Assembly: GCA_963767735.1 (NCBI GenBank)
Contig: CAVYES010000003.1
Location: forward strand, 32,001-96,000
Source: Candidatus Bathyarchaeota archaeon
GTDB taxonomy: Archaea > Thermoproteota > Bathyarchaeia > Bathyarchaeales > Bathycorpusculaceae
Direction: 5' to 3'
DNA: 64,000 bases
Under the pieces are notes generated by a model. That model ran no database searches and was not told the DNA's origin. It saw only the letters and a program-made list of their open reading frames with translations. Positions 21,101-53,495 of the stretch are shown here, in pieces. The position numbers were made by a program, and so were the translations under genes. Every line of letters begins with the position of its first letter. Position 1 is the first letter of the stretch.

Positions 21101-21137
21101 TGCTATACTATTCTTAGCACTCAGAAAACGAGCATAA
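18126..21137 (+). CDS. Secreted, C-terminally anchored surface protein A (PQQ-like beta-propeller + Ig-like domains)
   Basis: Signal peptide ending ASA, repeated TG(K/Q)xxW blades, many NxS/T sequons, P/T/A linker, TM helix and RKRA tail. Confidence 0.85.
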   Translation: MQNLKNKSLAILIAAILTVSIGVSITLIPSASAHTPAWNIPTYAYIEAAPNPVGVGQTIEVYMWLDCVYGASGGTTAAVGTNGYTASTGLLSNDYRFHNYELTITTPNGTSTTTTFAIEEDTTSNQITSFTPTTVGTYTLNFTYPGQVYGANGNGYSGSILVNDTYLPSSAQTTLTVQSTPIPAAITSEPLPTAYWTRPIFGQNSNWYTISSNWLGLGSGGYAGLSTAFGGNAIGPDEALFHADAIGPLTSHVMWTLPIQSGGVVGGNAFFAGGSYPGTGQGVGYYEGTAYQQRFVNPIIMDGILYFTTPIGFTGPGSGPTEAVNLQTGQTLWSSASVPPLSFGYIYNLWNPDEHGTFPPILVASNSITGQYELFDARTGYPLFNVTGVPASTSFSVPVSTTVYSFANTVASNTVAGPSGEQLKYVITNDGTAANPQWFMSEWNMSKLWQYDINPYTGGGSTSPDIINATNGLLIPTLPIPLNGETGTLPTGLSSAPGSVPYGSVLTVAANVPINGVNGVLNSTTYPSLATYDWNVSLPWLNTMPPAAPAVNPVTGQLVNPPAGANPVTILDVNYGDKMLCLNGSFPVGFAAAELPLQLPFSLFAVNLNASKGSVGSVLWTQTYNPPAGNLTVVPGPCDFQNGVFVLNYRETLQYVGYNLNNGNLLWGPTPSQNSWDYYGGPNNGYLSGQEAYGNIYSAAYAGIVYCYNDLTGKLLWTYGNGGEGNSTSAGLNVFYGDYPTFVNAIGNGVVYLLSTEHTVTDPIYKGALARAINATTGQEIWTLPDYTSEFNSMSFAMADGYATFFNGYDGQIYSVGQGSSATTVQAPLTAITAGTNVAIQGTVMDTSAGTQQTQQKADFPSGVPCASDASMTQWMSYVYQQQPEPTNFTGVTVTLTAIDPNGNFVTLGTATTDSKGLFNLMWQAPSIPGKYTVTASFAGNNGYWGSSAQTTMIVQNAPSATAAPTPAPSSVVNTYFVPAVIAIIVIIIIGFAILFLALRKRA

Positions 21138-21403: not shown

Positions 21404-22387
21404 TTAGAATGTGGATATGTATTGTTGTGGCGTCGGCCAGCTGTCCGGAATTTTCCTTGCGGTAGCTTCAATCTTTGTTATTCCGCAAATTCTGGCGATT
21501 TGCTCTTGGATAGCGAATGCTTCCGCAGTGTCTCTTATCATAACTGTCAATTGTAAATCATAATCACCGCTAGTCTTTATAATCGTAGTCACGTCGGGTA
21601 TTTTCGCAAGCGACTCAACTATTGGATCCAACAAGCCGCCAGGAGTGGCAAAAGCTATGTTGAAATCTAGCATTGAGGCGTATCCAATTTTATTTAGGTT
21701 TATTTGGATTGAAACCTTTATTGTGCCCTTTTCCCTTAGCCTGTGATATCTTTTTACGATAGTGTCAGTTGATACTCCTATTTCTTTTGCAATTCCAGTA
21801 AACGAGGCGCGACCATCCAACGTAAGTTTTCCTATTATTTGCTTATCTAACTCATCAATTACGATTCTATCACCCAGTGCAGTGACTGTTTTGCTTGAAT
21901 TCAGTTGATTGATTCCGCTAGATTCTTTTACAGCGCCTGTCAGGTTCAAATTTTCAGGAATGTTTCTAACGCCCGTCCAAATGTAAGTTTTTAATCCCAA
22001 AGTAGGCAGTTTTCGCCTAATTACCTGCTTAACATGATCCAATTCATTTAGGTCCCTTAAAGTTGCAACTGCTCTAACATTATAAACACTGTTATACTGC
22101 CGAGAAGCACGCACCTCAGTTATTTCACCTATCAATTCCATAACTTGGTCAATCTGCTGAGCTTCAACACTAATTAGCAGTGTAGTCAGTGCATCAAAAC
22201 CAAAATGAGCGTAATTCATCTGAACAGTTGCGCCATTAATTATCCCTTTTTTCTCCATTGACCTACATCGTTTCCAAATTTTGTTTTTGGGCACTCCGTA
22301 TTGTTTTGCTAATTCACAATAGCCCGTTCGACCTTCTGATAGAAGATTTTTCAGTATTTTTGAATCAAGCTCATTTATTTTAGGCAA
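21404..22387 (-). CDS. Tandem (double) Lrp/AsnC regulator
   Basis: Two HTH-RAM units: ELDSKILKNLLSEGR and DELDKQIIGKLTLDGRASF; TSGDYDL. Confidence 0.9.
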   Translation of the reverse strand: MPKINELDSKILKNLLSEGRTGYCELAKQYGVPKNKIWKRCRSMEKKGIINGATVQMNYAHFGFDALTTLLISVEAQQIDQVMELIGEITEVRASRQYNSVYNVRAVATLRDLNELDHVKQVIRRKLPTLGLKTYIWTGVRNIPENLNLTGAVKESSGINQLNSSKTVTALGDRIVIDELDKQIIGKLTLDGRASFTGIAKEIGVSTDTIVKRYHRLREKGTIKVSIQINLNKIGYASMLDFNIAFATPGGLLDPIVESLAKIPDVTTIIKTSGDYDLQLTVMIRDTAEAFAIQEQIARICGITKIEATARKIPDSWPTPQQYISTF

Positions 22388-22517
22388 GCAGTTCTTATCC
22401 TTTCGTTTGTTAGCTTGTTAGAATTTTTCAGCATTTAAAATTTCTTATTTTTTTTAGTATAATGGTCAAAACTAAAATTTAGTTAATTTTTGGCTCATTT
22501 GAAGACAGCTGATGGGT

Positions 22518-23492
22518 TTAGAAAGTCGAAATATATTGGCGAGGGGAAGGCCATTTCGCGCGTCCTTCTTCAAATCCTAATACTTCCATATCAATCCTGG
22601 TTATCCCTGAAATTTTTCCAATTTCTTTTTGAATGAAAAGCAATTTATCTATATCCTGCACCATTGCATATATTTGCAAGTCGTAGTCTCCCGTGGTTTT
22701 CATAATACTTATAACGTCAGGTATCTTGCTGATTTTCTCAATGAGCAAGAAGGAGTTTTCATGCGAGGTAACTGTGAAAAAAACACATAACGCTCTGTAT
22801 CCAATTTTGATGGGGTTTACTTGAATTGTTACTTTTAAAACACCATTTTTCTTCAGTTTTTCATATCTTCTATTGGCAGCGGCAGATGAGAGTCCTATTT
22901 CTCTGCCGAGTGTTTCCATGGACACCCGCCCATTCTCAGAGAGTTTGTCAGCTATTTTTTTGTCAATTTCGTCCATAATCATTGTTTGAGAATTACTTTT
23001 TTTCTGAGTATTGACCTGATAATTGATTTCCGCCTCTTCCTTTTTCTTGTCAGCACTTGTTATTGCCAAGTTCTGGTTCATTTCTTTTACATCTGTCCAG
23101 ATTGCAGTTCTCATTTCCAGAATCGAAAAATGTCTCTTAATTGCATCCTTTATATCATTCAACTGCTCAAGCGTTTTAAGGATTATAACAACATCCAAGT
23201 TTCCTTTGACTCCTCTGCTGTGAAGGGAGTAAACCTCTGGCATTTTCCGCAAATATTCAATAAGTTGAGCTTCCTGTTTAGAATCAACATTTATTGATAT
23301 GTACGCTACTGCCTTGTAACCAAAAATCTTATAATTAATGTGAATTGTTGCGCCTGTAATTATTCCTTTTTCTTCCATTTCGCCAATATTTCTTTTTACA
23401 TTTTCTTCTGTTTCGCCTATTTTTTTGGCGATTTCGCTATCAGTTTTGCGACCGTCAGCTAATAGCTCTTTGAGAATTTTTGCCTGCAACAC
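22518..23492 (-). CDS. Tandem (double) Lrp/AsnC regulator, paralog of 21404..22387
   Basis: KILKELLADGRKTDSEIA and DEIDKKIADKLSENGR; shared C-terminal WPxPxQYISTF. Confidence 0.9.
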   Translation of the reverse strand: MLQAKILKELLADGRKTDSEIAKKIGETEENVKRNIGEMEEKGIITGATIHINYKIFGYKAVAYISINVDSKQEAQLIEYLRKMPEVYSLHSRGVKGNLDVVIILKTLEQLNDIKDAIKRHFSILEMRTAIWTDVKEMNQNLAITSADKKKEEAEINYQVNTQKKSNSQTMIMDEIDKKIADKLSENGRVSMETLGREIGLSSAAANRRYEKLKKNGVLKVTIQVNPIKIGYRALCVFFTVTSHENSFLLIEKISKIPDVISIMKTTGDYDLQIYAMVQDIDKLLFIQKEIGKISGITRIDMEVLGFEEGRAKWPSPRQYISTF

Positions 23493-23661: not shown

Positions 23662-23740
23662 TGCTTTCTTAGTAAATTTTATAAAGTTTTAAATATACAA
23701 CAAAGAATTGGTAAATAAGACAAAAAGGAGAAAAAGAAAA

Positions 23741-26569
23741 ATGTCAAAAGAAACAACGGGAATTTCTAAGCACAAAATACAAGCTATAGCGATTGCTATA
23801 TTCTTAACACTTTCAATGTGTGCTTCAATGATGCTAATGCCAAGCGTGCACGCAGCGACTACTATCCCAAGTTTTAACTACATTAGTGTGTCACCTAACC
23901 CAACAGGTGTCGGTCAGCAAGTCGAAATCATCATGTGGGTTGAGGGAGTTTTCGGAGGAAATGCAGAATTAACCAATACTTATCGATTCGCGAATGACTA
24001 TCAACTCATCATTACTGCGCCAGATGGTACAAATACAAGCACTACTTTCGGCACTGTCACAAGCCCAACGTCGGACTATGACTATTCCTACACTCCTACA
24101 GCGACCGGTACGTACACTCTCACCTTCAATTTCCTAGCAACAACCATAACATCCACCAACGATCCCACCTCAGGCCAACTTGGCGATGAGTATTTACCAA
24201 CGACTACATCAACAACCCTCGTTGTTCAGTCAACGCCAATAGCCGCAATTCCGCAAACTCCGCTTCCAACTGCGTTCTGGACTCGACCTATATACGGTGA
24301 AAATTCCGCGTGGTACACCCTGGGGTCAAACTGGCTAGGATTCGGTTCACCGGGCTACATATCTATCAGCTCCGGACCTAATGCGGGAGCCAACGGAGAA
24401 GAGTTCGGCCAGCAATACCTGACCAACGTAGGACCTCTGACTTCACATATCATGTGGACTATGCCCCTTCTCTCCGGAGGAGTCGTAGGACAAGATGCCA
24501 CTACAATAGCGGGAAACACTTATTCCGATGGATCTGCATACGATCAAAAATTCTGCAACCCGATAATTGTTGACGGGCTGCTAATCTTCACAGAATCAAT
24601 CAGTCAAACAGGCACTACAGGAGCTTTAGCAGGTTCCACACCCGCATATGGACCAACTGTCTGTTATAACCTGGAATCAGGACAGCTAGTCTGGTCAGGC
24701 GCTGGCTCTGAAACCCCCCACAACCCCGTCCCTGCACTATCATTCGCCTACATATACGATCCCGAAGACCCCAACCAACACGGAGTTTGGCCACCAATGC
24801 TAGTTGCATCAGCATTCAGTTACGTAACTTTTTCGACGGTGTGGGAGGTTTTTGATGCTTATACAGGAGATGCACTCTTTAACGTAACCAACATTCCCTC
24901 GGCGGGAGCATCAATGCTGGGTCCGTCAGGCGAATATCTGCAAGTGAGCCTCACCAACTATGGGAATACGACGAATCCAAATTGGTATCTGCAAGAATGG
25001 AATTCATCCAGACTTTGGGAAAACCTATACTCTGGTCCATCAACAACGCCAACATATCCTCCGCCGATAACTAACGCAACCACAACAGTCTTAGTAAACG
25101 GAATTAACCAAGTCGAAGCAGACGACTTTAACATTTCGGTACCATGGCTCGACACTGCAACGCTCAACGGCGCACCCATAGGATCCGTAACTCAATCCGC
25201 AGCTATCTATAATGATATTTTGCTTATTTACGCTGGCACTTATCCCGCAAATAGTGCTGCTACTGAAAGCTTTTTCTTTGGTACGCCAAGCAGCACTCCC
25301 TATGAATACTTTGGAGTCGGACTCAACGCAACTGGTCTCGCCTATGTCAACCCTAGTATAGGAGGAGACACATCTGCAGCTGGATCTGTTAATCTGGGTT
25401 CGGAGTTATGGTCAAATGTGGTTCAACCGCCACCAAACAACATCACTGTCCTATGGGCTGGAATCGACCCTAAAAACAATGTCTTCATCGAAACCTGGAG
25501 GGAAACTCAGCAGTTCGTCGGGTACAGTTTGAGTACAGGCAAGGAAGTTTGGGGTCCAACCGCACCACAAGCAGCACTTGATTACTATGGCTGTCAGGCA
25601 TCAGGCAGTATATCCTGTACAGTATACAACGGCGACCTCATAAGCAGCGCCTACGCAGGAATAATCTACTGTTATTCTACGGCAACTGGAGATATATTGT
25701 GGACCTTCGGCAACGGTGGAGAAGGCAACAGCACAAACTCTGGTGTTGAAACTCCATTCGGTGTTTATCCAACCTTCGTAGTGGCTGTTGGTAACGGAGT
25801 AGTATACGTGGTTACCAGCGAGCACACTGAGGAAACACCGATTTTCAAGGGCGCATTAGCACGTGCTCTCAATGCAACAACCGGGCAAGAAATCTGGACT
25901 CTTTCGGATTACACAGGCGAATTCTTTACTGGCAGCTACGCCATCGCAGACGGCTATTCAGTATTCTTTAACGGCTACGACAACTCAGTCTACAATGTGG
26001 GCACAGGACCTAGCGCAACCACAGTAACGGCGCCACAGACTGCCATCACAGAAGGCTCCAACGTAATTATTCAGGGTACAGTTATGGATACTTCCGTAGG
26101 CACGCAGCAATTAGAACAGAAAGCTGACTTTCCAAACGGTGTTCCATGCGCATCTGACGCAAGCATGACTCAGTGGATGGGCTATGTTTACCAGCAGCAA
26201 CCCGAACCGACCAACTTCACCGGCGTTGTTGTAACGTTGACAGCTATCGACCCGAACCACAACTTCATCACCCTCGGCGAAGCCACAACTGACGCAAACG
26301 GTATGTATCACTTTACCTGGACTCTTCCAAGTATCCCAGGTACCTATTCCGTCACCGCAACATTCTGTGGCTCCAACGGCTACTATGGCTCAACCGCAGA
26401 AACCAACATGTACGTAGCATCATCTCCGGCCAGTCCAGCACCGACAGCTTCACCTGTTACAGGCTTGGCATCGACAGCATCCTTAGAGTTAGGGATTGCA
26501 GCAGTAATAATCGTAATAATCATAATCGGCGCTATACTGGCACTATTGCTGATGAGAAAACGTCCATAA
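23741..26569 (+). CDS. Surface protein B (PQQ-like beta-propeller paralog)
   Basis: ATG after GGAG RBS, signal peptide ending VHA, same conserved blocks as A, TM helix and RKRP. Confidence 0.85.
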   Translation: MSKETTGISKHKIQAIAIAIFLTLSMCASMMLMPSVHAATTIPSFNYISVSPNPTGVGQQVEIIMWVEGVFGGNAELTNTYRFANDYQLIITAPDGTNTSTTFGTVTSPTSDYDYSYTPTATGTYTLTFNFLATTITSTNDPTSGQLGDEYLPTTTSTTLVVQSTPIAAIPQTPLPTAFWTRPIYGENSAWYTLGSNWLGFGSPGYISISSGPNAGANGEEFGQQYLTNVGPLTSHIMWTMPLLSGGVVGQDATTIAGNTYSDGSAYDQKFCNPIIVDGLLIFTESISQTGTTGALAGSTPAYGPTVCYNLESGQLVWSGAGSETPHNPVPALSFAYIYDPEDPNQHGVWPPMLVASAFSYVTFSTVWEVFDAYTGDALFNVTNIPSAGASMLGPSGEYLQVSLTNYGNTTNPNWYLQEWNSSRLWENLYSGPSTTPTYPPPITNATTTVLVNGINQVEADDFNISVPWLDTATLNGAPIGSVTQSAAIYNDILLIYAGTYPANSAATESFFFGTPSSTPYEYFGVGLNATGLAYVNPSIGGDTSAAGSVNLGSELWSNVVQPPPNNITVLWAGIDPKNNVFIETWRETQQFVGYSLSTGKEVWGPTAPQAALDYYGCQASGSISCTVYNGDLISSAYAGIIYCYSTATGDILWTFGNGGEGNSTNSGVETPFGVYPTFVVAVGNGVVYVVTSEHTEETPIFKGALARALNATTGQEIWTLSDYTGEFFTGSYAIADGYSVFFNGYDNSVYNVGTGPSATTVTAPQTAITEGSNVIIQGTVMDTSVGTQQLEQKADFPNGVPCASDASMTQWMGYVYQQQPEPTNFTGVVVTLTAIDPNHNFITLGEATTDANGMYHFTWTLPSIPGTYSVTATFCGSNGYYGSTAETNMYVASSPASPAPTASPVTGLASTASLELGIAAVIIVIIIIGAILALLLMRKRP

Positions 26570-27295
26570 AGCGAAAACAAATCACCACAACTAAAATTTC
26601 CCCTTTTTTAGTTTTTAAAAAGCAATGGAGAAAGAAGGGGCTGAGAAGGCTCTGGTTAGATTAACGAAAAAGCAATAGCCTTTAGCAAGCTTTGCATTTT
26701 TCTTTTCCTTTAAAATTCCAGAGCCTCAGCAAACCAAGTTTTCTCACCCACCAAAAAATCAATTAAGTCAATAGATTTACTTTTGTTAACTCAATTATTT
26801 GGCGTGGTAGCTTTCCACTTTGATTTCAATTGGTCTAAATCATAAGCAACAGCCCAAGTGAATAGCGCGCTGGTTTGTTCCTAAAATGCATTAGCGGTTA
26901 TGTTTGAGGCGGGAGCTCGTATTTTTTGAGTTCCGTCCAAGGTTAGGAGGTGAACCCGAGCAGGACAAGATGAACACGAAACACGAAACCTTGGAAACAC
27001 TCTTCAGAAACATAGAGAAACACATCTTTAGCAATTTCTCCTCCAAATCCACTCTTTTACTTTTTTATTACCAATTTTCCCCGAAAATTTTGCTCTTTAG
27101 AAGCCAATTTTATATAAACTAAACATTATTTTATAAGAATAGACTAATTTGATTACGATATAAGCAATAATGTGAAGGTAAATTGCGCATTTACTAAAGT
27201 TTTATAAGGCAGTTTTCGCTAGCGTTGATACTATTGGACAAATGCATTTAGGCTTTCTGTTCAATAAAAATAAAATAAAATTGAGGAAAATAAAA

Positions 27296-30079
27296 ATGCG
27301 AAATTTAAAAAGTAAATCTTTAGCTATTTTGATTGCAGCAATTTTAACACTTTCAATGGGAACTTCAATGATGCTAATACCAAGCGTGCACGCGCAGACG
27401 TCGTCAGGTACTATTCCAGTGTTCGCCTACATCAGTGCGGCACCTAACCCAACAGGAGTCGGTCAACAAGTCGAAATCATCATGTGGCTTCAAGTGGTTT
27501 TCGGAGGCTATGCGGCTGGTACGGCAACATTAGACAATAATTATCGATTCATGAATGACTTTGAACTCACCGTTACTTCGCCAGGTGGTGCAAATACAAG
27601 CACTACTTTTGGCACTGTTACAAGCCCAACATCGGACTATGACTATTTCTACACTCCTACCGTGACTGGCACGTACACCTTCACCTTCAATTTCCTAGCA
27701 ACAAACATAACTTCCACCAATGATCCCGCCGCCGGACCCCTTATCGGCGATGAGTATCTACCAGCGACTGCATCAACAACCCTCACTGTTCAGTCAACAG
27801 CAATAGCCCCACTTCAGTCAGCTCCGCTTCCGACCACGTTCTGGACACGACCTATATACGGGGAAAATACCGCATGGTACACTATTGCGTCAAACTGGCT
27901 GGGTACCGGTTCGCCTGGCTATGTACCGAACGGCGGCGGACCCAATTTGGGAGGCAACGGGGAAGAGTTCGGCTCAACGACCAACGTAGGGCCTCTCACT
28001 TCTCATGTCATGTGGACTATGCCTATTGCGCCCGGCGGAATCGTTGGACAAACTGCCACCACAATACCGGCAAACACTTACGCCGATGGATCTGCATACG
28101 ATCAAAAATTCGACAATCCCATAATTGTTGACGGAATGCTCATCTTCACAGAACCAATCAGTCAAACTGAACCCTCAAGCGGACCGACCGTCTGCGTTAA
28201 CCTACAAACAGGAAAGCAAATCTGGTCAGGCGCTGGTGCTGCTACCCCTCATAACCCTGTACCTGCAATATCATTCGCCTACGTATACGACCCCGAAGAC
28301 CCCAACCAACACGGAGTTTGGCCACCAATGCTGGTTTCGAGTGGATGGGACTTTTTTGATGCTTTCACAGGAGACGCACTATTTAACGTAACAAACATTC
28401 CAGGGCAAGGATTTTTTGGACCTGCTGCCAATGCAGCATCAATGCTGGGTCCGTCAGGCGAAATTCTGATAACGACCATCACTAACTATGGGAATGCGAC
28501 GAATCCAAATTGGTATCTGCAAGAATGGAATTCATCCAGACTTTGGGAAAACCTATACAGTGGTCCATCTACAACGCCAACCTTGCCTCCGCCGATAACC
28601 AACGGAGCCACCACAATGTTAGTAAACGGAATTCACCAAGTCGCAGCAGACGACTTTAACGTTTCGATACCTTGGCTCAACACTGCAACGCTCAACGGCG
28701 CGCCTATAGGATCCATAACCACTCCCGCAGCTGTCCAAAATGGTGTGTTGCTTTGTTACGCTGGTTTTCTGCCCTCAGAGGGTGAAAACTTATTCTTTGG
28801 TGCAGCAAGCCAAACTCCCTATGAATTCTTTGGCATCGGCCTCAACGCAACTGGCCTCTTCGAACCTGTCAACGGCGGAGCAACAACTACAGCTGGATCT
28901 GTTAATCTAGGTACGGAGCTATGGTCAAACACGCTTCAACCGCCAACAAACGACCTCACTGTCCTATGGGCTGGAATCGACCCAGTTACCAATGTCTTCG
29001 TTCTAAACTACAGGGAAACTGTCCAGTTTGTCGGGTTCAGTTTGCTTACAGGCAAGCAAATTTGGGGTCCAACCACACCACAAGCGCCACTTGATTACTA
29101 TGGCTCAGACGGGTCAGGCAGTATAAGCGATACAATTGCTTACGGCAACATCTACAGCAGCGCCTACGCAGGAATAGTCTACTGCTACAGCGACACGACC
29201 GGAAATCTAGTGTGGACCTACGGCAACGGCGGAGAAGGCAACAGCACAAACTCTGGTGTTGAAACTCCATTCGGTTATAACCCAACCTTCGTAAGTGCTA
29301 TCGGTTCAGGAGTAGTATACACGATTACGACCGAGCACACTGAGGAAGAACCGATTTTCAAGGGTGCAGTCGCAACTGCTTTAAATGCAACAACTGGACA
29401 ACAAATCTGGACTCTTTCGGATTACACAGGCGAATTCCTAGCTGGTAGCTACGCCATCGCAGACGGCTATTCAGTATTCAATAACGGCTACGACAACTCA
29501 ATCTACACTGTAGGCCAAGGACCTAGCGCAGCCACCGTACAGGCACCACAGACCGCTATTACAGCAGGTACCAACGTTGCTATACAAGGAACAGTGATGG
29601 ATACTTCTGCAGGCACGCAACAAACTCAACAGTTAGCTGACTTTCCACATGGCGTTCCATGCGCATCTGACGCAAGCATGACTCAATGGATGGAATACGT
29701 TTACGATCAGCAACCAGAACCAACCAACTTCACAGGCGTAACAGTAACTTTAACCGCCATTGACCCCAACGGCAACTTCGTTACCCTCGGCACCGCCACA
29801 AGTGATTCAAGCGGCTTATACCACCTCACTTGGACTCCTCCGAGCATTCCAGGAACCTACTTAGTCACTGCAACTTTCGCTGGCAACAACGGCTACTACG
29901 GATCAAGCGCACAAACTACCATGGTCGTGCAAAACGCGCCTTCAGCTACCAGTTCACCTACACCCGCTCCAGCATCAAACACTAATACATACGTCTTAGG
30001 CCTAGGTATCGCTATCATAATCGTAATCATAGTAGTCGGCGCCGTATTGGCATTGCTAATGCTAAGAAAAAAACCATAA
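27296..30079 (+). CDS. Surface protein C (PQQ-like beta-propeller paralog, mosaic of A and B)
   Basis: MRNLKSKSLAILIAAILT resembles A, the body resembles B, the C-terminal domain resembles A; TM helix and RKKP. Confidence 0.85.
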   Translation: MRNLKSKSLAILIAAILTLSMGTSMMLIPSVHAQTSSGTIPVFAYISAAPNPTGVGQQVEIIMWLQVVFGGYAAGTATLDNNYRFMNDFELTVTSPGGANTSTTFGTVTSPTSDYDYFYTPTVTGTYTFTFNFLATNITSTNDPAAGPLIGDEYLPATASTTLTVQSTAIAPLQSAPLPTTFWTRPIYGENTAWYTIASNWLGTGSPGYVPNGGGPNLGGNGEEFGSTTNVGPLTSHVMWTMPIAPGGIVGQTATTIPANTYADGSAYDQKFDNPIIVDGMLIFTEPISQTEPSSGPTVCVNLQTGKQIWSGAGAATPHNPVPAISFAYVYDPEDPNQHGVWPPMLVSSGWDFFDAFTGDALFNVTNIPGQGFFGPAANAASMLGPSGEILITTITNYGNATNPNWYLQEWNSSRLWENLYSGPSTTPTLPPPITNGATTMLVNGIHQVAADDFNVSIPWLNTATLNGAPIGSITTPAAVQNGVLLCYAGFLPSEGENLFFGAASQTPYEFFGIGLNATGLFEPVNGGATTTAGSVNLGTELWSNTLQPPTNDLTVLWAGIDPVTNVFVLNYRETVQFVGFSLLTGKQIWGPTTPQAPLDYYGSDGSGSISDTIAYGNIYSSAYAGIVYCYSDTTGNLVWTYGNGGEGNSTNSGVETPFGYNPTFVSAIGSGVVYTITTEHTEEEPIFKGAVATALNATTGQQIWTLSDYTGEFLAGSYAIADGYSVFNNGYDNSIYTVGQGPSAATVQAPQTAITAGTNVAIQGTVMDTSAGTQQTQQLADFPHGVPCASDASMTQWMEYVYDQQPEPTNFTGVTVTLTAIDPNGNFVTLGTATSDSSGLYHLTWTPPSIPGTYLVTATFAGNNGYYGSSAQTTMVVQNAPSATSSPTPAPASNTNTYVLGLGIAIIIVIIVVGAVLALLMLRKKP

Positions 30080-30332
30080 GCTAAAGAAGCCAAACAAAAA
30101 AATACTTTCCCTTTTCTTTTTTTAGTCATATCAAAGCATCGGAGAAGAAAACAGGTCTGAGAAGACTCTGGTTAAATTCACGAAAAGCAATCACTTTTGG
30201 ATTTTAAGTGGTCTAAACCATAAGTAACAGCCTAAGTGAATGATTATCAAAAACTTTAACACTAACCAACAAAAAAAGTCGGTGCATAGGGATTAAATTC
30301 TAATACATTCTGTTTGGCTTTTTGCTTGTAAT

Positions 30333-30974
30333 TTATTCGTTTTCTTCTTCTTGTGTTTCTTCTTGTGGTTGGGCGGTTTCTGCTTTTTGTGCGTCGCTTG
30401 AGAGTAGCATGTTGATTAGTGCTTTTTGGTCTACTTCTGCCCTTGTTCTCCAATCCAGATATATCTGTCCATTGTCATCTTGCCCTAAGTAGCCGTAGCG
30501 AATGTAGCGTTCGATGTTTAAGCCGACTTTCCAGTTGGGCATTTTCTCGGCAAGCAGTTTTTCAACGTCTTTTCGTGCTGCCTGCCTTTTCTTGCTAATT
30601 ATGTACGAGATTGTTATAGCTAAGCCAGCTAAATCGTCAATGTGCCAACCCATCAACTTATCCTTTGTCGCCAAGTCGCCACGTAGCGCAACATAGAATC
30701 TTGCTTTATCCAGCTCATCTAAAGTTGGCTTTTCCGGAGTTTTCTCCTCTTCAAAAACCGTTTTAACCTGCAGATCCAGCGGTTTTAGGTAATCGTCAAG
30801 CAGATCAAGCACTTTGGGGTAATCTGAACCTAAACCTTTACGCAGCTCCCAGCCTTTAACGCCTGGTTTCTGATGGCGCTTGTAGAAGAGCATCTGCGTT
30901 GCTTTCTTGATTTTGCCGCCGTAAACGCCTTTTCTTTTGCTCAATTCAATTCGCCTCTTTTCCATTTCTGCCAA
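30333..30974 (-). CDS. Putative KITE subunit (tandem winged helix; ScpB/Nse1/Nse3-like)
   Basis: 213 aa, last gene of the SMC-kleisin operon; LDDYLKPLDLQV in WH-A and IERYIRYGYL...YLDWRTRAEV in WH-B. Confidence 0.65.
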   Translation of the reverse strand: MAEMEKRRIELSKRKGVYGGKIKKATQMLFYKRHQKPGVKGWELRKGLGSDYPKVLDLLDDYLKPLDLQVKTVFEEEKTPEKPTLDELDKARFYVALRGDLATKDKLMGWHIDDLAGLAITISYIISKKRQAARKDVEKLLAEKMPNWKVGLNIERYIRYGYLGQDDNGQIYLDWRTRAEVDQKALINMLLSSDAQKAETAQPQEETQEEENE

Positions 30975-31768
30975 TCTTCACATGAGACGGCGATGGGCAC
31001 CGATGTTGACTGCTGCGTTAAAAGTTCTGTTCTGGGTTTGTCGAAGGGTTTTATGAAAACAAGTTCTTCTAACCTGTCAATCTCCAACGTTGCATAGCCG
31101 TAGGTAACCAAAAAACTTGTTAAGAAAGCTCTTTGAACTGTTTCTTCGTATGTGTCCGCCCCGATAAAATCCCAATAATGGAGTTTTCCATCCTGCCCTT
31201 TCTTAGCCGCGCAGTCTTTGAGTTCTTGCCAGTAACAGTTCAATTCATCAGAAAATTCTCTGTCACCTAAAACTCGCTGCTTAATCAGTTCTTCCCTGCT
31301 TGCAAAACCCATCGAAACTTCAGCTGCACTAATGTCTTTCCATCTTTCACTGATTGGAGCTAACGCTTCCCAGTAGAGTAATCCTTGGGCTAAAGTGTTG
31401 AGGCTGATTTGTTCAAACTCGATTAGCGGATTCCACGCTTTAAGAAAAACGTTAACCATCTCTTGCTTTCCAATTTGCAAGATTTTTTCTTCCAGCAAAA
31501 ACGGGTCAGTATAAAGCGAAGTTGACCGCTGCTTGACCCATTCACTCTGCATCTTTATCACTGAGGCTAAATGGTGGAGAGCTTCAGCGTCCAGCTTTAG
31601 CTCGTCGGGATGTTCCCAATGCGGGAAATACTCTCTAACTATTTTGATTATTTCGTCAACATTTAGCGTGAAGGGGTCTGCTGTGTGGTTTTCGATGGCG
31701 ATGCACATTTCAATTACGCGCTCCAGCCTTTCTTTGCCAAGCGCCTTGTGCTGTTTTGTTGCCTGCAT
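30941..31768 (-). CDS. Putative kleisin (ScpA-like)
   Basis: N-terminal DPFTLNVDEII...ALHHLASVIKMQS and C-terminal wHTH ETVQRAFLTSFLVTYGYATL; start coupled to the SMC stop (TAATG). Confidence 0.7.
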   Translation of the reverse strand: MQATKQHKALGKERLERVIEMCIAIENHTADPFTLNVDEIIKIVREYFPHWEHPDELKLDAEALHHLASVIKMQSEWVKQRSTSLYTDPFLLEEKILQIGKQEMVNVFLKAWNPLIEFEQISLNTLAQGLLYWEALAPISERWKDISAAEVSMGFASREELIKQRVLGDREFSDELNCYWQELKDCAAKKGQDGKLHYWDFIGADTYEETVQRAFLTSFLVTYGYATLEIDRLEELVFIKPFDKPRTELLTQQSTSVPIAVSCEDWQKWKRGELN

Positions 31769-33693
31769 TACGCTGTTACCTCACGCACCACTGATTTTCC
31801 TTCAAGATTCTGAACCGTAATCACGTTAGCATCTTGCTGGGCAAAGGTGATTTGGCTTGGAGTAATTACAACGTATTGGGCGTTTGCATCTTTAATCATG
31901 GAGAGGAGGATTTTCGCGATCATTTCGCGGTTTTTAGGGTCCATGTGAATGTCGTATTCGTCGACTGCTCGGAACGGGGAGCGTACATGCTGCTGCAAGG
32001 CTAAGAGAAAACTCATGGTTGCCGTGGTCCGCTCGCCGCCGCTTTGAGTGTAAGCATCTAGCGCTACTGGTTTTCCACCTTTGAAGCCAACGAGGATTTC
32101 TAAGCCTGCTGTTTCAATGTCCTGTTCATTGGAGAGCTGCACTTCTCCCTTTGCCATGGTTTGGCTCATGATTTTCTGGTATTCCACGTTTACGCGGCTA
32201 AGAAGGTTCTGCATGACGGTTCGCCAAGATAGCATTCGGGTTTTGACTTCTTCAAGGGTTTTCTCGCGGTTTTCGGCTACAAGCTGCGCTTTTTCCTTCA
32301 GCTCCAAATAAAGTTTCGAGTAGGATTCGTACTGGCGCTCTATGTCCTCTGACACGTCAGCCAGAGCTGCGATATGCCCCTCTGTTAAACTGATTTCATC
32401 TTGTATTTCAGAGGCGCTTTTTAAGACTGCTATTCGTTCACCCGACTGCTCAGCCTTAAGAACTGTTGCCTTAAGGTTTTCGTCTGCTTCTTTTAGTGAT
32501 TTTTCAATTTCTTTTAGATTAACGATTGCGTTTGCACGCTTAAACTCAAGCAGGGCAAGGGTAACCTTTTTCTCAAGCGCTTCGTCTGAAACCGTGTCCG
32601 CTGACTTTTCCAGATTATGCGTTTTTGCTTGGTTTTCTTTGACTTGCTCGTTGGCCTCAATGATTCTCAACTGTGCATTTTTGAGCATTTCTTTGAGGTT
32701 TTCACTTCTGAGCAGTTTAAGTTGGCTTTTACTGCTCTGGATCGCTAGCTGTAGCGATTGTGTTTCTTCGAGCAACTGTTGAATCAGAGATTCTGAGGCT
32801 TGGTTTTGGGCGATTTGGTGTTCAAGGCTTAACCGTTCGTCAAAAGCTGCCTTTACACTTTTTCTTAGTGTTTCCTGCTGGTTCTGCTGGCTGTTTAGCT
32901 GGTTAGTTATTGCCTGCTTTTGGTCTTCGATTTTGCCCAGTGCGTCTTTGTTTTTGTTTAGGTTAGATTGTAAGTTTTTAACTATGCTTTCCCGTCTTTC
33001 AACTTCTGCCCACCCTAATTCCCTGTCTAAAAATCTGCGTTTAATCTGAAGCTGCTTTTTCTCCTGGTATTTTTCGTATTGTTCACGCCAGTAATTGAGG
33101 GTTTGCTGCGCTTGTTCTAAGAGTTTGCTTACTGATTCTTCTTGCGTGAGGATTCGCATGAGTTTTGTTTTTGCTTGCAGGACGTTTTCGCGGAATGGCT
33201 CTAATCCGACTGCTTCTTCGACCATGCGTAGTTTTTCATTGTTGCTCAGCACGGTGAATTGTTCAACCATGTTCTGGTGCATGATGATGAGCATGTTGTC
33301 GGGGTCCACGCCGAATCTGCCCAATAAACGTTCAACATCTTGTTTTCCGACAGCTCGGTTTTCAAGTTCAAACCCGTATTTGCCGTCTCGGCGTAGAGTC
33401 CGGGTTAGAAACAGTTGGTCTTTTTGGTATTTTGGTACGGGGCGTTTGTTTCCCTGTTTGCCATTATCTAAAATAAGCGTCACCCGCGCCTGGTCTCGTC
33501 CCCACCTGATTAAATCGCTGAGTTTTCTTGAGCGCTCCGTATAGGATTGCCCCAAGCCAACCGATATTGCCAGCAGAAGCGAGGATTTTCCTGCCCCGTT
33601 GGGTCCACCAATAACGTTTACGCCTTGTTTAAACGGTACCCTTGCGTACTCGTAACTCATGAAATTTTCAAGTATAACTTCTTGGATTAACAT
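31768..33693 (-). CDS. Short SMC-family ATPase with Smc5/6-like head; no recognisable hinge or zinc hook
   Basis: LENFMSY, Walker A GPNGAGKS, Q-loop MHQ, signature QSGGE, Walker B/D-loop AVDEYDIHMD; central coiled coil; 641 aa. Confidence 0.92.
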   Translation of the reverse strand: MLIQEVILENFMSYEYARVPFKQGVNVIGGPNGAGKSSLLLAISVGLGQSYTERSRKLSDLIRWGRDQARVTLILDNGKQGNKRPVPKYQKDQLFLTRTLRRDGKYGFELENRAVGKQDVERLLGRFGVDPDNMLIIMHQNMVEQFTVLSNNEKLRMVEEAVGLEPFRENVLQAKTKLMRILTQEESVSKLLEQAQQTLNYWREQYEKYQEKKQLQIKRRFLDRELGWAEVERRESIVKNLQSNLNKNKDALGKIEDQKQAITNQLNSQQNQQETLRKSVKAAFDERLSLEHQIAQNQASESLIQQLLEETQSLQLAIQSSKSQLKLLRSENLKEMLKNAQLRIIEANEQVKENQAKTHNLEKSADTVSDEALEKKVTLALLEFKRANAIVNLKEIEKSLKEADENLKATVLKAEQSGERIAVLKSASEIQDEISLTEGHIAALADVSEDIERQYESYSKLYLELKEKAQLVAENREKTLEEVKTRMLSWRTVMQNLLSRVNVEYQKIMSQTMAKGEVQLSNEQDIETAGLEILVGFKGGKPVALDAYTQSGGERTTATMSFLLALQQHVRSPFRAVDEYDIHMDPKNREMIAKILLSMIKDANAQYVVITPSQITFAQQDANVITVQNLEGKSVVREVTA

Positions 33694-34167
33694 TAAAGTT
33701 TCTTAGCCTCTAAATTGAGCGTTCGTATCTAAGGAAAAGCGTCTTATTAAAACAATTTGACATCTCTATGATGATTGTTCTCGCGAACATCAATGATTGA
33801 ATCATTCAAGTGATAGTTGTTTTAATAATGCAAATAAAGCCAGCGTTATTTGCAAGGGCTTGTCTGCTTTCTCTACTTTTTCGGTGGTGTAAAAAGAATC
33901 TATTGTTGCTTCGGCTGTGTCGCTGTTGCTTTTTTGCAGGTTAACCTGCCGTGTGTGTCCCAAGAGGACGTACAAAGGAATATGCCGAAGATAATCCTTA
34001 TTTGAGTGATGGCGGTGGAAGACCGCTCAGAGCCACTTAACCCACAAATTTGTCCTGGGGTTTGCATTTCCCCTTTTCCTTCTAATTTCGGGTCAAGCGG
34101 TTCTGTAATCTTCATCTCAAAACTTTCACTCTACGAGACACGGACAAATTTTTAGACGTGTAAACGC

Positions 34168-34719
34168 CTAAGCGGTCAGCACGGCAATATAACACTTCAA
34201 ATCTTCATTATCAACGAAAGAAACTGTCTTCAAACGGGAGCTTTCAAGAACATCCATGAATGTGCTGAGAGGAAAAGCCTTCTTCAACCCAGTGATCACA
34301 ACTTTGCCGCCAAGTTTGGCAACCCACTTTAACTCGTTTAAAGTTTCAAGGGGCTCTGGCGTGTTCTGAAGCACCGTGAACGCGAAACTGACATCAAAAA
34401 CTGCTTCTCTAAAGGGCAAGTGGTCAGCGTCAGCCTGCAAAACCTGCACATTCTGGAATGCACGCGTTTGACCTTTGGCTTTAAGCAAGAGTTTGCGTGA
34501 AACGTCAACGCCCACCAGCTCCTTTGCCTTTGCTGCCGCATAGCGGAAAAACAAGCCTGAGCCGCATCCAACATCCAAGACAGTGCAGCCTGCCACATCT
34601 ACGTTTTCCAATGATGCCCCATATTTTGCCTCCTGTTCTTGGGCATATCGCTCTTCGTACATTTCAGCTGTTAAATCATAACGTTGCATTACCTTGCGCT
34701 TGTCTTTCCAGCCTGTCAC
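34168..34719 (-). CDS. Class I SAM-dependent methyltransferase
   Basis: VLDVGCGSG, GVDVS and ADADHLPF. Confidence 0.9.
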   Translation of the reverse strand: MTGWKDKRKVMQRYDLTAEMYEERYAQEQEAKYGASLENVDVAGCTVLDVGCGSGLFFRYAAAKAKELVGVDVSRKLLLKAKGQTRAFQNVQVLQADADHLPFREAVFDVSFAFTVLQNTPEPLETLNELKWVAKLGGKVVITGLKKAFPLSTFMDVLESSRLKTVSFVDNEDLKCYIAVLTA

Positions 34720-34783
34720 TTCTGAGTTCCTTCAAGAAATCTTATGTACCTAAAGCCTGACTAAAATAGTTGGCTGAAAACAA

Positions 34784-35575
34784 TTGCAACATCCAAACAA
34801 AATCTCTGTCCTTACAGAACCAACGCTTGCGGAAGCTGCCACGTTGATTGAGAAAGCTTTTGTCCAAAGAAGAACCCTCATCGTTGCCGGCGCATGCCAA
34901 GTAACCTATGCTGGCAGGGCAAATTCCACTCTTGAACTTGGCGAACGAATCTTAATCATAAAAGCTGACGGCTCGCTTCTTGTTCACCGACCAGTCGGCT
35001 ATGAACCAGTCAACTGGCAACCCGCAGGCAGCATCTTCCATGTCCAAGTCAAAAACGACGAACTGGAGGTTCATGGCGTTAGGCAGAAGCCGCGTGAAAC
35101 CGTCCGCGTAATCTTCGACAGCGTCTACATGGTTTCGGCGCTTAACCTTTCAGATTCAGGTGATTTTCTTTTGCACGCAAGCGAAAACGACATGCACCGT
35201 GCGATTCTTCTGAAGCCTGAACTGCTCGAAGCGGGATTCAAGCCAATTAGCTGGGAGAAAAAAGTTGAGCCGGGCTTCGTGGACATCTACGGTGAAGACA
35301 AAAACGGCAAACTCGTCATAGTTGAAGTTAAACGCAAAACCGCATCAAAAGAGGCCGCGTTGCAGTTGGCAAAATACGTTGAACCAATCAAAGCTAAAGT
35401 TAACCGTGAAGTCCGCGGCGTGCTGGTTGCTCCCAGCCTCGGCAAGGACGTGCAGAGAATGCTTGTCACGCTTGGATTGGAATATAAGGCGTTGGACCCC
35501 AAAACCTGCGCTGAGGTCCTTAAGAAGACAGAAAACAAAAAGCTGGAAACGTTCTTCAACAAAAAGGAACAGTAA
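34784..35575 (+). CDS. nucS: Endonuclease NucS/EndoMS
   Basis: IIKADGSLLVH, EPVNWQP, VDIYG...VEVKR and QLAKY. Confidence 0.95.
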   Translation: MQHPNKISVLTEPTLAEAATLIEKAFVQRRTLIVAGACQVTYAGRANSTLELGERILIIKADGSLLVHRPVGYEPVNWQPAGSIFHVQVKNDELEVHGVRQKPRETVRVIFDSVYMVSALNLSDSGDFLLHASENDMHRAILLKPELLEAGFKPISWEKKVEPGFVDIYGEDKNGKLVIVEVKRKTASKEAALQLAKYVEPIKAKVNREVRGVLVAPSLGKDVQRMLVTLGLEYKALDPKTCAEVLKKTENKKLETFFNKKEQ

Positions 35576-53243: not shown

Positions 53244-53495
53244 ATGCCTAAAAGAAATGTTGGACAGAAAGGGCAAGTTGTAATTCCTAAACAAATGAGG
53301 GATGCTTTGGGATTGAAACCGGGCGTTGAAATAACCCTAGAATTACGAGATAAAGAAATAGTGATTAAAAAGCCCGAAGTCAAGGGTAGTTATACTGAAT
53401 ATTTCATAAGCACTTCCTCGCCAAAATTAAAGAAAGAAGTGAATCTTAAGGAATTGTTTGAAGAAGAAGTTGAAGAACGACTTGGCTTACGTTGA
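53244..53495 (+). CDS. vapB: AbrB/MazE-type antitoxin
   Basis: VGQKGQVVIPKQMRDALGLKPG; precedes a PIN gene. Confidence 0.9.
   Translation: MPKRNVGQKGQVVIPKQMRDALGLKPGVEITLELRDKEIVIKKPEVKGSYTEYFISTSSPKLKKEVNLKELFEEEVEERLGLR

What the first reader, a model, noticed from the sequence alone, without database searches (positions are those of the whole stretch)
30333..33693. Compact archaeal Smc5/6-like operon: SMC ATPase + kleisin + KITE
Seen: three overlapping, co-oriented genes (641, 275 and 213 aa). The SMC head reads NFMSY, FGVDPDNMLIIMHQ, ELGWAEV and QSGGERTTATMSFLLALQ..SPFRAVDEYDIHMDPKNR. Recalled family knowledge, to be verified: QSGGE..LQ and MDP.N typify eukaryotic Smc5, and SPFR..DE.D..MD..NR and WA.V typify Smc6. 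Canonical prokaryotic Smc has LSGGEK..P..LDE.DA.LD and is about 1150 aa. Gene 2 has ScpA-like terminal domains and gene 3 is a tandem winged helix. Inference: a complete homodimeric pre-Smc5/6 complex acting in chromosome organisation, repair or restriction of extrachromosomal DNA. The ATPase may belong to the described coalescin (ClsN)/archaea-specific SMC-related group, but I know of no characterised kleisin and KITE partners for it.
Basis: partly seen in the sequence, partly recalled or inferred. Interest (0 to 1): 0.85.

Follow-up and report, generated by a model that had tools for sequence, protein, structure and literature searches.

The report
Hinge-less archaeal Smc5/6-like operon
Three overlapping genes in a Bathyarchaeia chromosome encode the archaeal relative of the eukaryotic Smc5/6 genome-maintenance complex, an operon type already in print, though its ATPase has half-length arms and no hinge, which the papers I could read do not mention.

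Summary
Three co-oriented, overlapping genes of 641, 275 and 213 aa lie at 30333-33693 on the minus strand.

- The ATPase is an SMC whose head groups with eukaryotic Smc5/Smc6, not with canonical Smc, Rad50 or ClsN/ASRP.
- Gene 2 is an Nse4-type kleisin.
- Gene 3 folds as an Nse1/Nse3-type KITE.
- The same genome carries a separate canonical smc-scpA-scpB operon.

This kind of operon is already published. Yoshinaga & Inagaki 2021 described the SMC, with Bathyarchaeota examples. van Hooff et al. (bioRxiv) described SMC5/6-related SMC, Nse4-like kleisin and Nse1/3-like kite operons in TACK and Asgard archaea. This scan has also reported the same operon on at least 11 other genomes.

What those papers' main texts do not discuss is the build of the ATPase. 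Its arms are about 150 residues long and end in an unconserved loop, with no hinge and no zinc hook. This short form is the norm: 154 of 301 genomes sampled from the phylum carry it. Hinge-bearing relatives branch at the base. One Bathyarchaeia family has an extra paralog with a CxxC hook.

The parts
31768..33693 (-). 641-aa hinge-less SMC ATPase of the archaeal SMC5/6-related family
   Evidence: ORF. Pfam SMC_N 4e-29, with no SMC_hinge match at E<=1. PDB phmmer: Smc5 6.3e-30, Smc6 1.6e-27, Pyrococcus Smc 1.1e-23. AF2 model pLDDT 86.1. Trees.
33583..33606 (-). Walker A, GPNGAGKS (residues 30-37)
   Evidence: Invariant G30 P31 N32 G33 G35 K36 S37 in 47 family members. Group comparison.
32707..32739 (-). 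Arm apex: loop at residues 319-329 between helix 165-318 and helix 330-417; no hinge, no CxxC
   Evidence: AF2 secondary structure, with pLDDT<50 at residues 321-328. This is the least conserved part: majority-residue fraction 0.21 against 0.73 and 0.65 for the heads. The 290-350 segment varies from 0 to 99 residues in 47 members.
32032..32046 (-). ABC signature motif QSGGE (residues 550-554)
   Evidence: The most frequent 8-residue forms in the 53 short/mid rows all carry SGGE (TQSGGERS 17, TQSGGERT 10, SQSGGERS 3, TQSGGERI 3; THSGGERS 3 has H for Q; 3 rows are gaps). QSGGE occurs in 4 of 4 labelled eukaryotic SMC5, LSGGE in 3 of 3 labelled SMC6, and A/T-SGGE in 8 canonical Bathyarchaeia Smc.
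31936..31980 (-). Walker B / D-loop block SPFRAVDEYDIHMDP (residues 572-586)
   Evidence: Invariant S572 R575 D578 E579 H583 D585. Compared with SMC5 (PFRxVDEINQGMDP), SMC6 and canonical Smc (DExDAHLD).
30941..31768 (-). 275-aa Nse4-type kleisin
   Evidence: ORF. Family profile against PDB: the top four hits are EID3/NSE4B 1.1e-5 and Nse4 3.5e-5, 3.5e-5 and 1.1e-4, with no ScpA. Nse4_C matches 33 of 45 family members. The Atlas gives a eukaryotic Nse4 cluster at 0.92.
30959..31156 (-). C-terminal winged-helix domain of the kleisin (residues 205-270), the expected SMC-cap binder
   Evidence: Pfam Nse4_C 4.4e-5, 24.1 bits, just under the 26-bit cut-off. hhalign to the ScpA-like kleisins of the canonical operons: probability 86.5%, E 4.5e-6, 75 columns.
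30333..30974 (-). 213-aa KITE (tandem winged helix) of the Nse1/Nse3 type
   Evidence: ORF. AF2 pLDDT 78.2. Foldseek PDB ranks 1-4: 7dg2_C 2.9e-5, 7dg2_A 4.2e-5, 5hvq_D 9.8e-5, 5hvq_C 2.9e-4 (Nse1-Nse3-Nse4 and MAGE-G1/NSE1). These are followed by JetB, MAGE-A4, MukE and ScpB.

Best explanation
The operon encodes the archaeal 'SMC5/6-related' SMC complex. It has one SMC ATPase, an Nse4-type kleisin and an Nse1/Nse3-type KITE, and it exists beside the genome's canonical Smc-ScpAB.

Shown here: the family identity of all three proteins, the conserved operon, the intact ATPase motifs, and a hairpin-shaped SMC with arms of about 150 residues and no hinge or zinc hook.

Inferred by homology with Smc5/6 and Smc-ScpAB:
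- Two SMC heads engage around two ATP.
- A KITE dimer sits on the kleisin middle and helps clamp DNA on the engaged heads.
- Because the arm tips carry no conserved dimerisation element, the two SMCs are probably held together by heads, kleisin and KITE rather than at the apex.

The likely role is chromosome maintenance or repair on the host chromosome, given its lineage-wide, vertical-looking distribution and housekeeping neighbourhood.
For: ATPase:
- PDB sequence search ranks Smc5 (6.3e-30) and Smc6 (1.6e-27) above Pyrococcus Smc (1.1e-23), Smc3 (1.3e-17) and Rad50 (1.3e-8).
None of the 150 has the 1148-1208 aa length of canonical Smc.
- Tree 2 (60 rows, 386 head columns, 7 Rad50, 19 canonical Smc) joins the family and eukaryotic SMC5/6 at SH-aLRT 99. 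Forcing the family with canonical Smc costs 30.5 lnL, p-AU 0.027.
- Shared motifs: 'TP' at the H-loop place in every family row listed and in all 18 eukaryotic SMC5/6, against S/T-L in canonical Smc and TH in Rad50. QSGGE is shared with SMC5, and the neck Trp with SMC6.

Kleisin. As a control, the kleisin profile of the canonical operon hits ScpA (2.9e-16), Scc1/Rad21 and CAP-H2, and no Nse4.

KITE.

Operon conservation.

Second operon in the same genome.

Distribution: 154 of 301 genomes of the phylum, nearly all-or-none by family. Examples are f18 24/25, f25 18/18 and f20 11/11 against f12 0/43 and f21 0/20.

Hinge-less build:
- AF2 hairpin.
- No SMC_hinge match.
- Walker A to SGGE distance is 429-563 residues in 95 family sequences, with 0 CxxC, against 872-935 in eukaryotic SMC5/6 and 1045-1057 in canonical Smc.
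- The apex is unconserved.

Context: the neighbourhood is housekeeping, with RNA polymerase genes and Cdc6.

Weak hint of expression: short contigs in RNA libraries match parts of the SMC and kleisin genes at 95-100% identity. One of them (X1 record 4, 31684-31825) spans the SMC-kleisin junction.
Against: - My first tree, rooted on a single Rad50, could not decide. The tree forcing the family with canonical Smc was 7.6 lnL better than the free search, p-AU 0.62. The second test rejects that grouping only moderately (p 0.027), and neither tree contains Smc1-4, MukB/JetC, RecN or ASRP.
- Structure does not discriminate between SMC subfamilies. The best Foldseek match of the SMC model is the Pyrococcus Smc head (5xei, 1.5e-23), ahead of Smc6.
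- The window's own kleisin scores 24.1 bits on Nse4_C, below the 26-bit cut-off, and alone it gives no significant PDB hit.
- The kleisin N-terminal domain was not shown to be kleisin-like. hhalign aligned only the C-terminal 75 columns.
- KITE sequence evidence is weak: MAGE in 3 of 42 members, SMC_Nse1 in 3 of 42, and no significant hit of its profile to PDB sequences.
- No binding, ATPase activity, stoichiometry or cellular role was tested.
- RNA-library contigs can contain DNA.
Confidence: 0.85

Rival explanations
1. The same three proteins act mainly as an immune system against plasmids or viruses, like Wadjet (JetABC-D) or Lamassu, or like the antiviral side of human Smc5/6, rather than as a chromosome-maintenance complex.
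For: KITE-containing SMC complexes restrict extrachromosomal DNA (review PMC10586767, abstract seen in the listing). The gene 3 model also matches Wadjet JetB (8as8_C 6.4e-4, 8dk1_F 1.1e-3). PADLOC gives LmuB 2.9e-20 and JetC 6.8e-10 for the ATPase. Lamassu LmuB likewise has half-length (~20 nm) arms (PMC12663957, passages).
Against: - The kleisin and KITE match no PADLOC model at E<=1.
- No nuclease effector of the JetD or LmuA type was seen in the operon in any of the 49 other-genome loci. These loci were searched only with the three family profiles, not for nucleases.
- The distribution is lineage-wide and nearly all-or-none by family, unlike patchy defence islands.
- The neighbours are housekeeping genes.
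- The PADLOC hits are generic SMC-head similarity.
Confidence: 0.12
2. The ATPase is a member of the archaea-specific SMC-related proteins (ASRP, the ClsN/coalescin and Sph family), as the first reader suggested as an alternative.
For: The size is similar (the ASRP model has 593 positions), and NF045487 gives a weak match of 5.2e-21.
Against: - NF045487 scores 74.9 bits against a cut-off of 300, and the SMC model scores higher at 167.7 bits.
- ASRPs carry a zinc hook in 'the vast majority' of members and form a clade apart from SMC5/6-related aSMC (PMC9389158, passages). The window protein and 95 of 95 short family sequences have no CxxC in the arm.
- The partners are an Nse4-like kleisin and a KITE.
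Confidence: 0.02
3. The short ATPase is a truncated or mis-assembled canonical SMC (an artefact or pseudogene).
For: It is about half the length of canonical Smc, and the genome is a metagenome-type assembly of 10 contigs.
Against: - The 120 best homolog clusters, at 81-99% identity, all have 629-675 aa.
- Open frames of 551-774 aa (apart from frames cut at contig ends) were found across 154 genomes.
- The frame is uninterrupted, the heads are conserved, and the AF2 hairpin is confident.
- The full-length canonical Smc is present elsewhere in the genome.
Confidence: 0.01

Closest known systems
Archaeal 'SMC5/6-related' SMC complex. The SMC5/6-related aSMC was described by Yoshinaga & Inagaki 2021 (PMC8665677). 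Operons with an Nse4-related kleisin and an Nse1/3-like kite were described by van Hooff, Raas, Tromer & Eme (bioRxiv 10.1101/2024.01.07.573240).
   Same: - The SMC head has Smc5/6 affinity.
- It has an Nse4-type kleisin and an Nse1/3-type kite.
- All three genes sit in one operon.
- It co-exists with a canonical Smc operon.
- The host is a TACK archaeon; Bathyarchaeota is named among the nine founding homologs.
   Different: Nothing places it outside this family. In the sections and passages I read, the papers do not mention that the TACK members are half-length and lack a hinge. Their supplements were not readable here and may bear on this.
Eukaryotic Smc5/6 holocomplex (Smc5, Smc6, Nse1-6; for example PDB 7qcd, 7tve, 8i4x)
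   Same: - Head sequence signatures: TP at the H-loop place, QSGGE as in Smc5, neck Trp as in Smc6.
- Nse4-like C-terminal winged helix.
- KITE fold closest to Nse1/Nse3.
   Different: - There is one SMC gene instead of an Smc5/Smc6 pair, and one KITE gene instead of Nse1 + Nse3.
- There is no hinge, and the arms are about half as long.
- No RING family appears among the Pfam matches of 42 KITEs.
- No Nse2 or Nse5/6 equivalents were looked for.
Canonical prokaryotic Smc-ScpAB (TIGR02169, ScpA PF02616, ScpB PF04079)
   Same: It has the same three-part architecture and gene order. The kleisin C-terminal domains are homologous, and ScpB appears among the structural matches of the KITE (rank 16).
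   Different: - TIGR02169 scores 167.7 bits against a cut-off of 729.4.
- There is no hinge.
- The kleisin profile hits Nse4 and not ScpA.
- The real Smc-ScpAB of this genome lies on contig C6.
Lamassu LmuB and Rad50/SbcC (short-armed or hook-bearing SMC-like ATPases)
   Same: The arms are short, about 20 nm, and there is no SMC hinge.
   Different: - There is no CxxC hook.
- The head groups with SMC rather than Rad50.
- The partners are a kleisin and a KITE, not Mre11/SbcD or LmuA/LmuC.

Membership tests
Archaeal SMC5/6-related SMC-kleisin-kite complex | The SMC head is phylogenetically closer to eukaryotic SMC5/6 than to canonical Smc | tested here: met
   Tree 2: SH-aLRT 99, with the alternative rejected at p-AU 0.027. 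Tree 1, with one Rad50, was undecided at p-AU 0.62. The HMMER rankings agree. Smc1-4 were not in my trees.
Archaeal SMC5/6-related SMC-kleisin-kite complex | An Nse4-related kleisin is encoded with it | tested here: met
   The top four profile hits in PDB are Nse4/EID3. Nse4_C matches 33 of 45 members. The gene is adjacent in 42 of 49 other-genome loci.
Archaeal SMC5/6-related SMC-kleisin-kite complex | An Nse1/3-like kite is encoded with it | tested here: met
   Foldseek ranks 1-4 are Nse1/Nse3/MAGE-G1 chains. Sequence support is weak, at 3 of 42 members each for MAGE and SMC_Nse1.
Archaeal SMC5/6-related SMC-kleisin-kite complex | A distinct operon beside a condensin/cohesin-related operon | tested here: met
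   On contig C6: smc (1183 aa, 699 bits), an ScpA-like ORF (20.7 bits, under the 24.6 cut-off) and scpB (124.8 bits). Canonical Smc was found in 31 of 41 genomes of the class.
Eukaryotic Smc5/6 holocomplex | An Smc5/Smc6 heterodimer joined by hinge domains | tested here: not met
   There is one family SMC gene in the operon, and it is the only family match in the genome besides the canonical Smc. There is no SMC_hinge match, and the AF2 model is a hairpin.
Eukaryotic Smc5/6 holocomplex | Nse1 RING finger, Nse2 SUMO ligase, Nse5/6 | tested here: inconclusive
   No RING family appears among the Pfam matches of 42 KITEs at E<=0.1. Nse2 and Nse5/6 were not searched for in the genome.
Canonical Smc-ScpAB | TIGR02169/TIGR02168 above cut-off, with an SMC hinge | tested here: not met
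   167.7 and 135.6 bits against cut-offs of 729.4 and 567.35. No hinge.
ASRP (ClsN/coalescin, Sph) | NF045487 above cut-off, with a zinc hook at the arm apex | tested here: not met
   74.9 bits against a cut-off of 300. There is no CxxC in the arm.
Rad50/SbcC | Rad50 model above cut-off, a CxxC hook and an Mre11 partner | tested here: not met
   68.9 bits against a cut-off of 700. The genome's own Rad50-like gene (927 aa, with CPTC) is elsewhere, on C5. Rad50 forms a separate clade at SH-aLRT 100.
Wadjet / Lamassu defence systems | PADLOC models for all subunits and a nuclease effector (JetD or LmuA) | tested here: not met
   Only generic ATPase hits were found, and the kleisin and KITE have no PADLOC match at E<=1. 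There is no further conserved gene in the operon.
SMC-kleisin complexes in general | The kleisin N-terminus binds the SMC neck, its C-terminus binds the cap, and a KITE dimer binds the kleisin | not testable with these tools
   Complex prediction was full and then withdrawn, so no binding test was run.

The most novel reading that the evidence does not exclude
The hinge, usually treated as a defining and essential SMC part, is naturally dispensable. Across Thermoproteota the standard Smc5/6-type complex would use SMC hairpins about 22 nm long with neither hinge nor zinc hook. These would be held together only by heads, kleisin and KITE.

Hinge-bearing relatives (an Asgard protein with a Pfam SMC_hinge, plus two long archaeal forms) branch at the base. 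This fits a loss of the hinge inside the TACK lineage. One Bathyarchaeia family later re-grew long arms with a CxxC hook in a stand-alone paralog.

Such a complex would be a natural minimal system for asking what the hinge and long arms contribute to DNA clamping, entrapment and loop extrusion.
Probability: 0.45. Interest if true: 0.65.

Novelty: new member of a known kind. Interest (0 to 1): 0.35.

Why it matters
The locus itself is an ordinary member of a published family, so it adds little to the question of where Smc5/6 came from.

The useful point is structural. This family shows that an SMC-kleisin-KITE machine closely related to Smc5/6 exists widely in a half-size, hinge-less, hook-less form. 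The Lamassu paper read here divides SMC proteins into 'hinge' and 'CxxC' families (PMC12663957). Another paper called hinge-less SMCs from ocean metagenomes 'a new kind of biology' (PMC12153180). Neither covers this family.

If the short form works as a bona fide SMC complex, it constrains models in which hinge dimerisation or hinge-DNA contacts are required. It would also offer a small, tractable complex for structural and single-molecule work. The relatives of about 590 aa seen in contigs labelled Thaumarchaeota and Nitrosopumilus point to groups with cultured members.

Tried and rejected
- **Complex prediction.** The queue was full at every try and the tool was then withdrawn. Nothing was folded, so no binding statement is made.
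- **The search for related loci with the kleisin alignment A2.** It failed for lack of a conserved stretch. Only 4 of 79 loci were informative: Thermofilales L073, Thaumarchaeota L074, Nitrosopumilus L094 and archaeon MnTg01 L101.
- **Tree rooted on a single Rad50.** Its placement was unstable (end branch 3.78) and the AU test was uninformative. I replaced it with a tree that has 7 Rad50 and bacterial Smc.
- **KITE family profile against PDB sequences.** There was no significant hit; the best was 0.079, to an unrelated protein.
- **Kleisin alone against PDB.** Not significant.
- **Linkage to the neighbouring NucS endonuclease and methyltransferase.** Rejected. They are adjacent in only 1 of 49 other loci, from the same genus. 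The flanks held were only about 1.5 kb.
- **RNA libraries.** Only short contigs cover parts of 30951-33435. No cover was seen over the KITE gene or over 33562-34900 in the four runs laid. This proves nothing either way, and the contigs cannot show transcript ends or levels.
- **Hinge-like middles of P0180 and P0204.** By eye they have a globular, hinge-like middle segment, but Pfam SMC_hinge matched only P0212 of the 12 proteins tested. I call the other two 'long forms with a non-coiled middle', not proven hinges.
- **Literature searches for the hinge-less trait.** These were (0 papers). None gave a paper describing it for this family.

Full report
**Observation**

One search confirms three co-oriented ORFs on the minus strand:
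- 31768..33693, 641 aa, ATG start
- 30941..31768, 275 aa, ATG start
- 30333..30974, 213 aa, TTG start

The first two genes share one base (TAATG). The third starts 34 nt before the kleisin stop at TTG, or 25 nt before it at an in-frame ATG. Names attached to close homologs identify the host as a Bathyarchaeia archaeon. The assembly has 3.04 Mb in 10 contigs and is 95% complete.

**The ATPase**

Family models:
- Pfam gives SMC_N (4e-29) and no SMC_hinge at E<=1.
- No NCBIfam model reaches its cut-off: SMC_prok_A 167.7 of 729.4 bits, ASRP 74.9 of 300, Rad50 68.9 of 700, arcadin-4 43.6 of 860.

Sequence rankings:
- Against all PDB sequences the best matches are yeast Smc5 (6.3e-30), Smc6 (1.6e-27) and a second Smc5 (8.4e-26). 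Next come Pyrococcus Smc (1.1e-23), Smc3 (1.3e-17) and Rad50 (1.3e-8).
- A HMMER scan of 1.84 billion cluster representatives found 135 proteins at E<=1e-30.
- The best 150 are mostly 550-700 aa, followed by proteins of 1013-1144 aa at 23-28% identity.
- None of the 150 has the 1148-1208 aa length of the canonical Smc of this class.

**Phylogeny, including the result against my reading**

Tree 1:
- It used head-domain columns only (395 columns, 86 rows), was built by quick IQ-TREE with LG+C20 and was rooted on the genome's own Rad50-like protein.
- It separated canonical Smc (SH-aLRT 100) from a clade of the archaeal family plus eukaryotic SMC5 and SMC6 (SH-aLRT 97).
- An AU test did not reject the rival grouping of family with canonical Smc. 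That constrained tree was even 7.6 lnL better, p-AU 0.62.
- The single Rad50 row had a very long branch, so its position, and hence the root, was unreliable.

Tree 2:
- I rebuilt the set with 7 Rad50, 9 archaeal and 10 bacterial canonical Smc, 22 family members and 12 eukaryotic SMC5/6 (60 rows, 386 columns).
- Rad50 is a clade at 100, canonical Smc at 92, and family plus SMC5/6 at 99.
- Forcing the family with canonical Smc now costs 30.5 lnL, p-AU 0.027.

This agrees with the published trees:
- Yoshinaga & Inagaki 2021, sections 10 and 14 and passages.
- Yoshinaga et al. 2022, passages.
- van Hooff et al., sections 8 and 14.

My trees lack Smc1-4, MukB/JetC, RecN and ASRP.

**Motifs**

- QSGGE occurs in the family and in 4 of 4 labelled SMC5. 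LSGGE occurs in 3 of 3 labelled SMC6. A/T-SGGE occurs in the 8 canonical Smc.
- 'TP' sits at the H-loop position in every family row listed and in all 18 eukaryotic rows. Canonical Smc have S/T-L there, and Rad50 has TH.
- The PFRxxDE block and the neck Trp are shared with SMC5/6.
- Walker A, the signature motif and Walker B are invariant across 47 family members, so the ATPase looks functional.

**The kleisin (gene 2)**

- Alone, the protein scores 24.1 bits on Nse4_C, just under the 26-bit cut-off. It has no significant PDB hit.
- A profile of 45 family members (A2) hits only Nse4 proteins significantly: human EID3/NSE4B 1.1e-5 and yeast Nse4 3.5e-5, 3.5e-5 and 1.1e-4. The next hit is at 0.22.
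- Nse4_C matches 33 of 45 members, best 5.6e-9.
- The Atlas feature search gives a eukaryotic Nse4 cluster at 0.92 as a lead.
- Control: the kleisin profile from the canonical operons (A4) hits ScpA (2.9e-16), Scc1/Rad21 and CAP-H2, and no Nse4.
- The two kleisin profiles align over the C-terminal winged helix only, with probability 86.5% and E 4.5e-6.
- The N-terminal domain was therefore not verified.

**The KITE (gene 3)**

- It has no family match alone.
- Among 42 members, MAGE and SMC_Nse1 each match 3.
- The AF2 model (pLDDT 78.2) has a long N-terminal helix and two winged-helix domains.
- Foldseek ranks 1-4 are chains of the Nse1-Nse3-Nse4 and MAGE-G1/NSE1 structures (2.9e-5 to 2.9e-4). 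They are followed by Wadjet JetB, MAGE-A4, MukE and ScpB.

**Operon conservation and distribution**

- 154 of 301 genomes sampled from the phylum have a match at E<=1e-20, nearly all-or-none by family. Apart from frames cut at contig ends, the listed open frames are 551-774 aa.
- The trio is adjacent in all 28 other-genome loci of the first set that were not cut; 29 were fetched, and L022 is cut.
- It is adjacent in 14 of 20 loci from further families.
- In the four genomes checked where it was not adjacent, both partners lie within 10 kb or on another contig.

**The second operon and context**

- The genome has its own canonical smc (1183 aa), an ScpA-like ORF and scpB on contig C6.
- 31 of 41 genomes of the class have a canonical Smc.
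- The window is housekeeping DNA, with RNA polymerase B/A'/A'' and Cdc6.
- The NucS and methyltransferase neighbours are conserved in only 1 of 49 loci.

**The hinge-less build**

- The AF2 model of the SMC has pLDDT 86.1. After the N-terminal head comes one helix at residues 165-318, then an 11-residue low-confidence loop, then returning helices 330-417, 427-443 and 451-511 with two breaks, and finally the C-terminal head.
- The distance from Walker A to SGGE is 429-563 residues in 95 family sequences, none with a CxxC in the arm. It is 872-935 in eukaryotic SMC5/6 and 1045-1057 in canonical Smc.
- The apex is the least conserved part (0.21 against 0.73 and 0.65 for the heads) and varies in length.
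- Three rarer long relatives have a non-coiled middle. Of these, the Asgard protein P0212 has a Pfam SMC_hinge match (4.6e-11). All three branch at or near the base of the family in tree 2, which fits hinge loss within TACK archaea.
- In the papers searched and read I found no mention of this for the family. Supplements were not readable.

**Expression**

Four coded RNA libraries from two studies hold short contigs 95-100% identical to parts of the SMC and kleisin genes. One spans their junction. This is a weak hint only.

**What this scan found before**

The same operon was reported on at least 11 other genomes, with the same verdict. I reached my reading before seeing those notes, so they agree but are not independent evidence.

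**Verdict**

It is a new member of a published kind. The hinge-less, hook-less architecture is real, widespread and apparently not discussed in print.

Noticed in passing
Other genomes: L152 1444-4647(+), L153 1498-4617(-), L154, L155; proteins P0135, P0137, P0150: One Bathyarchaeia family (f63, 4 of its 10 genomes, out of 301 class genomes searched) has an extra paralog of this SMC. It is 1039-1067 aa where complete, with long arms and a single C[DN]KC motif at mid-arm (C-E-R-C in P0150), like a Rad50 zinc hook. It stands alone. Two of the four genomes also keep a complete short-form SMC-kleisin-KITE operon on another contig, and a third has the parts on separate contigs. The heads nest inside the short-form clade.
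   Followed up: partly
window 12763-16601 (+): RNA polymerase subunit A is read as three ORFs: 12763-15159 (Rpb1 domains 1-4), 14996-15820 in another frame with a 164-nt overlap (first part of domain 5), and 15858-16601 (rest of domain 5). This may be a frameshift, an assembly error or an unusual A'/A'' split point.
   Followed up: no
window 54193-56822 (-): An Lhr-type helicase appears split into two ORFs 50 nt apart. One has DEAD and a truncated Helicase_C (319 aa). The other has WH_Lhr and DEAD_assoc (539 aa).
   Followed up: no
window 18126-21137, 23708-26569, 27242-30079 (+): Three paralogous secreted proteins of 945-1003 aa, with a PQQ-like beta-propeller and a C-terminal membrane anchor. 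The end of the third (29800-30100) is covered by RNA-library contigs at word depths of 30-325, far above the SMC operon.
   Followed up: no
window 47695-48876 (+): A Cdc6/Orc1 initiator gene lies next to a small MarR-like ORF and molybdenum-cofactor genes. A replication origin may be nearby.
   Followed up: no
window 21404-23492 (-) and 46348-47388 (+): Three Lrp/AsnC-type regulators of about 325-346 aa, each with two HTH domains. Two of them are in tandem.
   Followed up: no
window 4193-4561 (+), 7264-8154 (+), 53458-53892 (+), 61249-61683 (+): An IS200-like Y1 transposase, an N6/N4 DNA methylase without an obvious partner nuclease, and two PIN-domain proteins.
   Followed up: no
G000 contig C5:485584-488298 (-): The genome's Rad50-like protein (927 aa) has a CPTC hook at residue 469. 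It scores only 281 bits on the Rad50 model NF003034, whose cut-off is 700. Only 8 of 41 sampled genomes of the phylum matched that model at E<=1e-40.
   Followed up: partly
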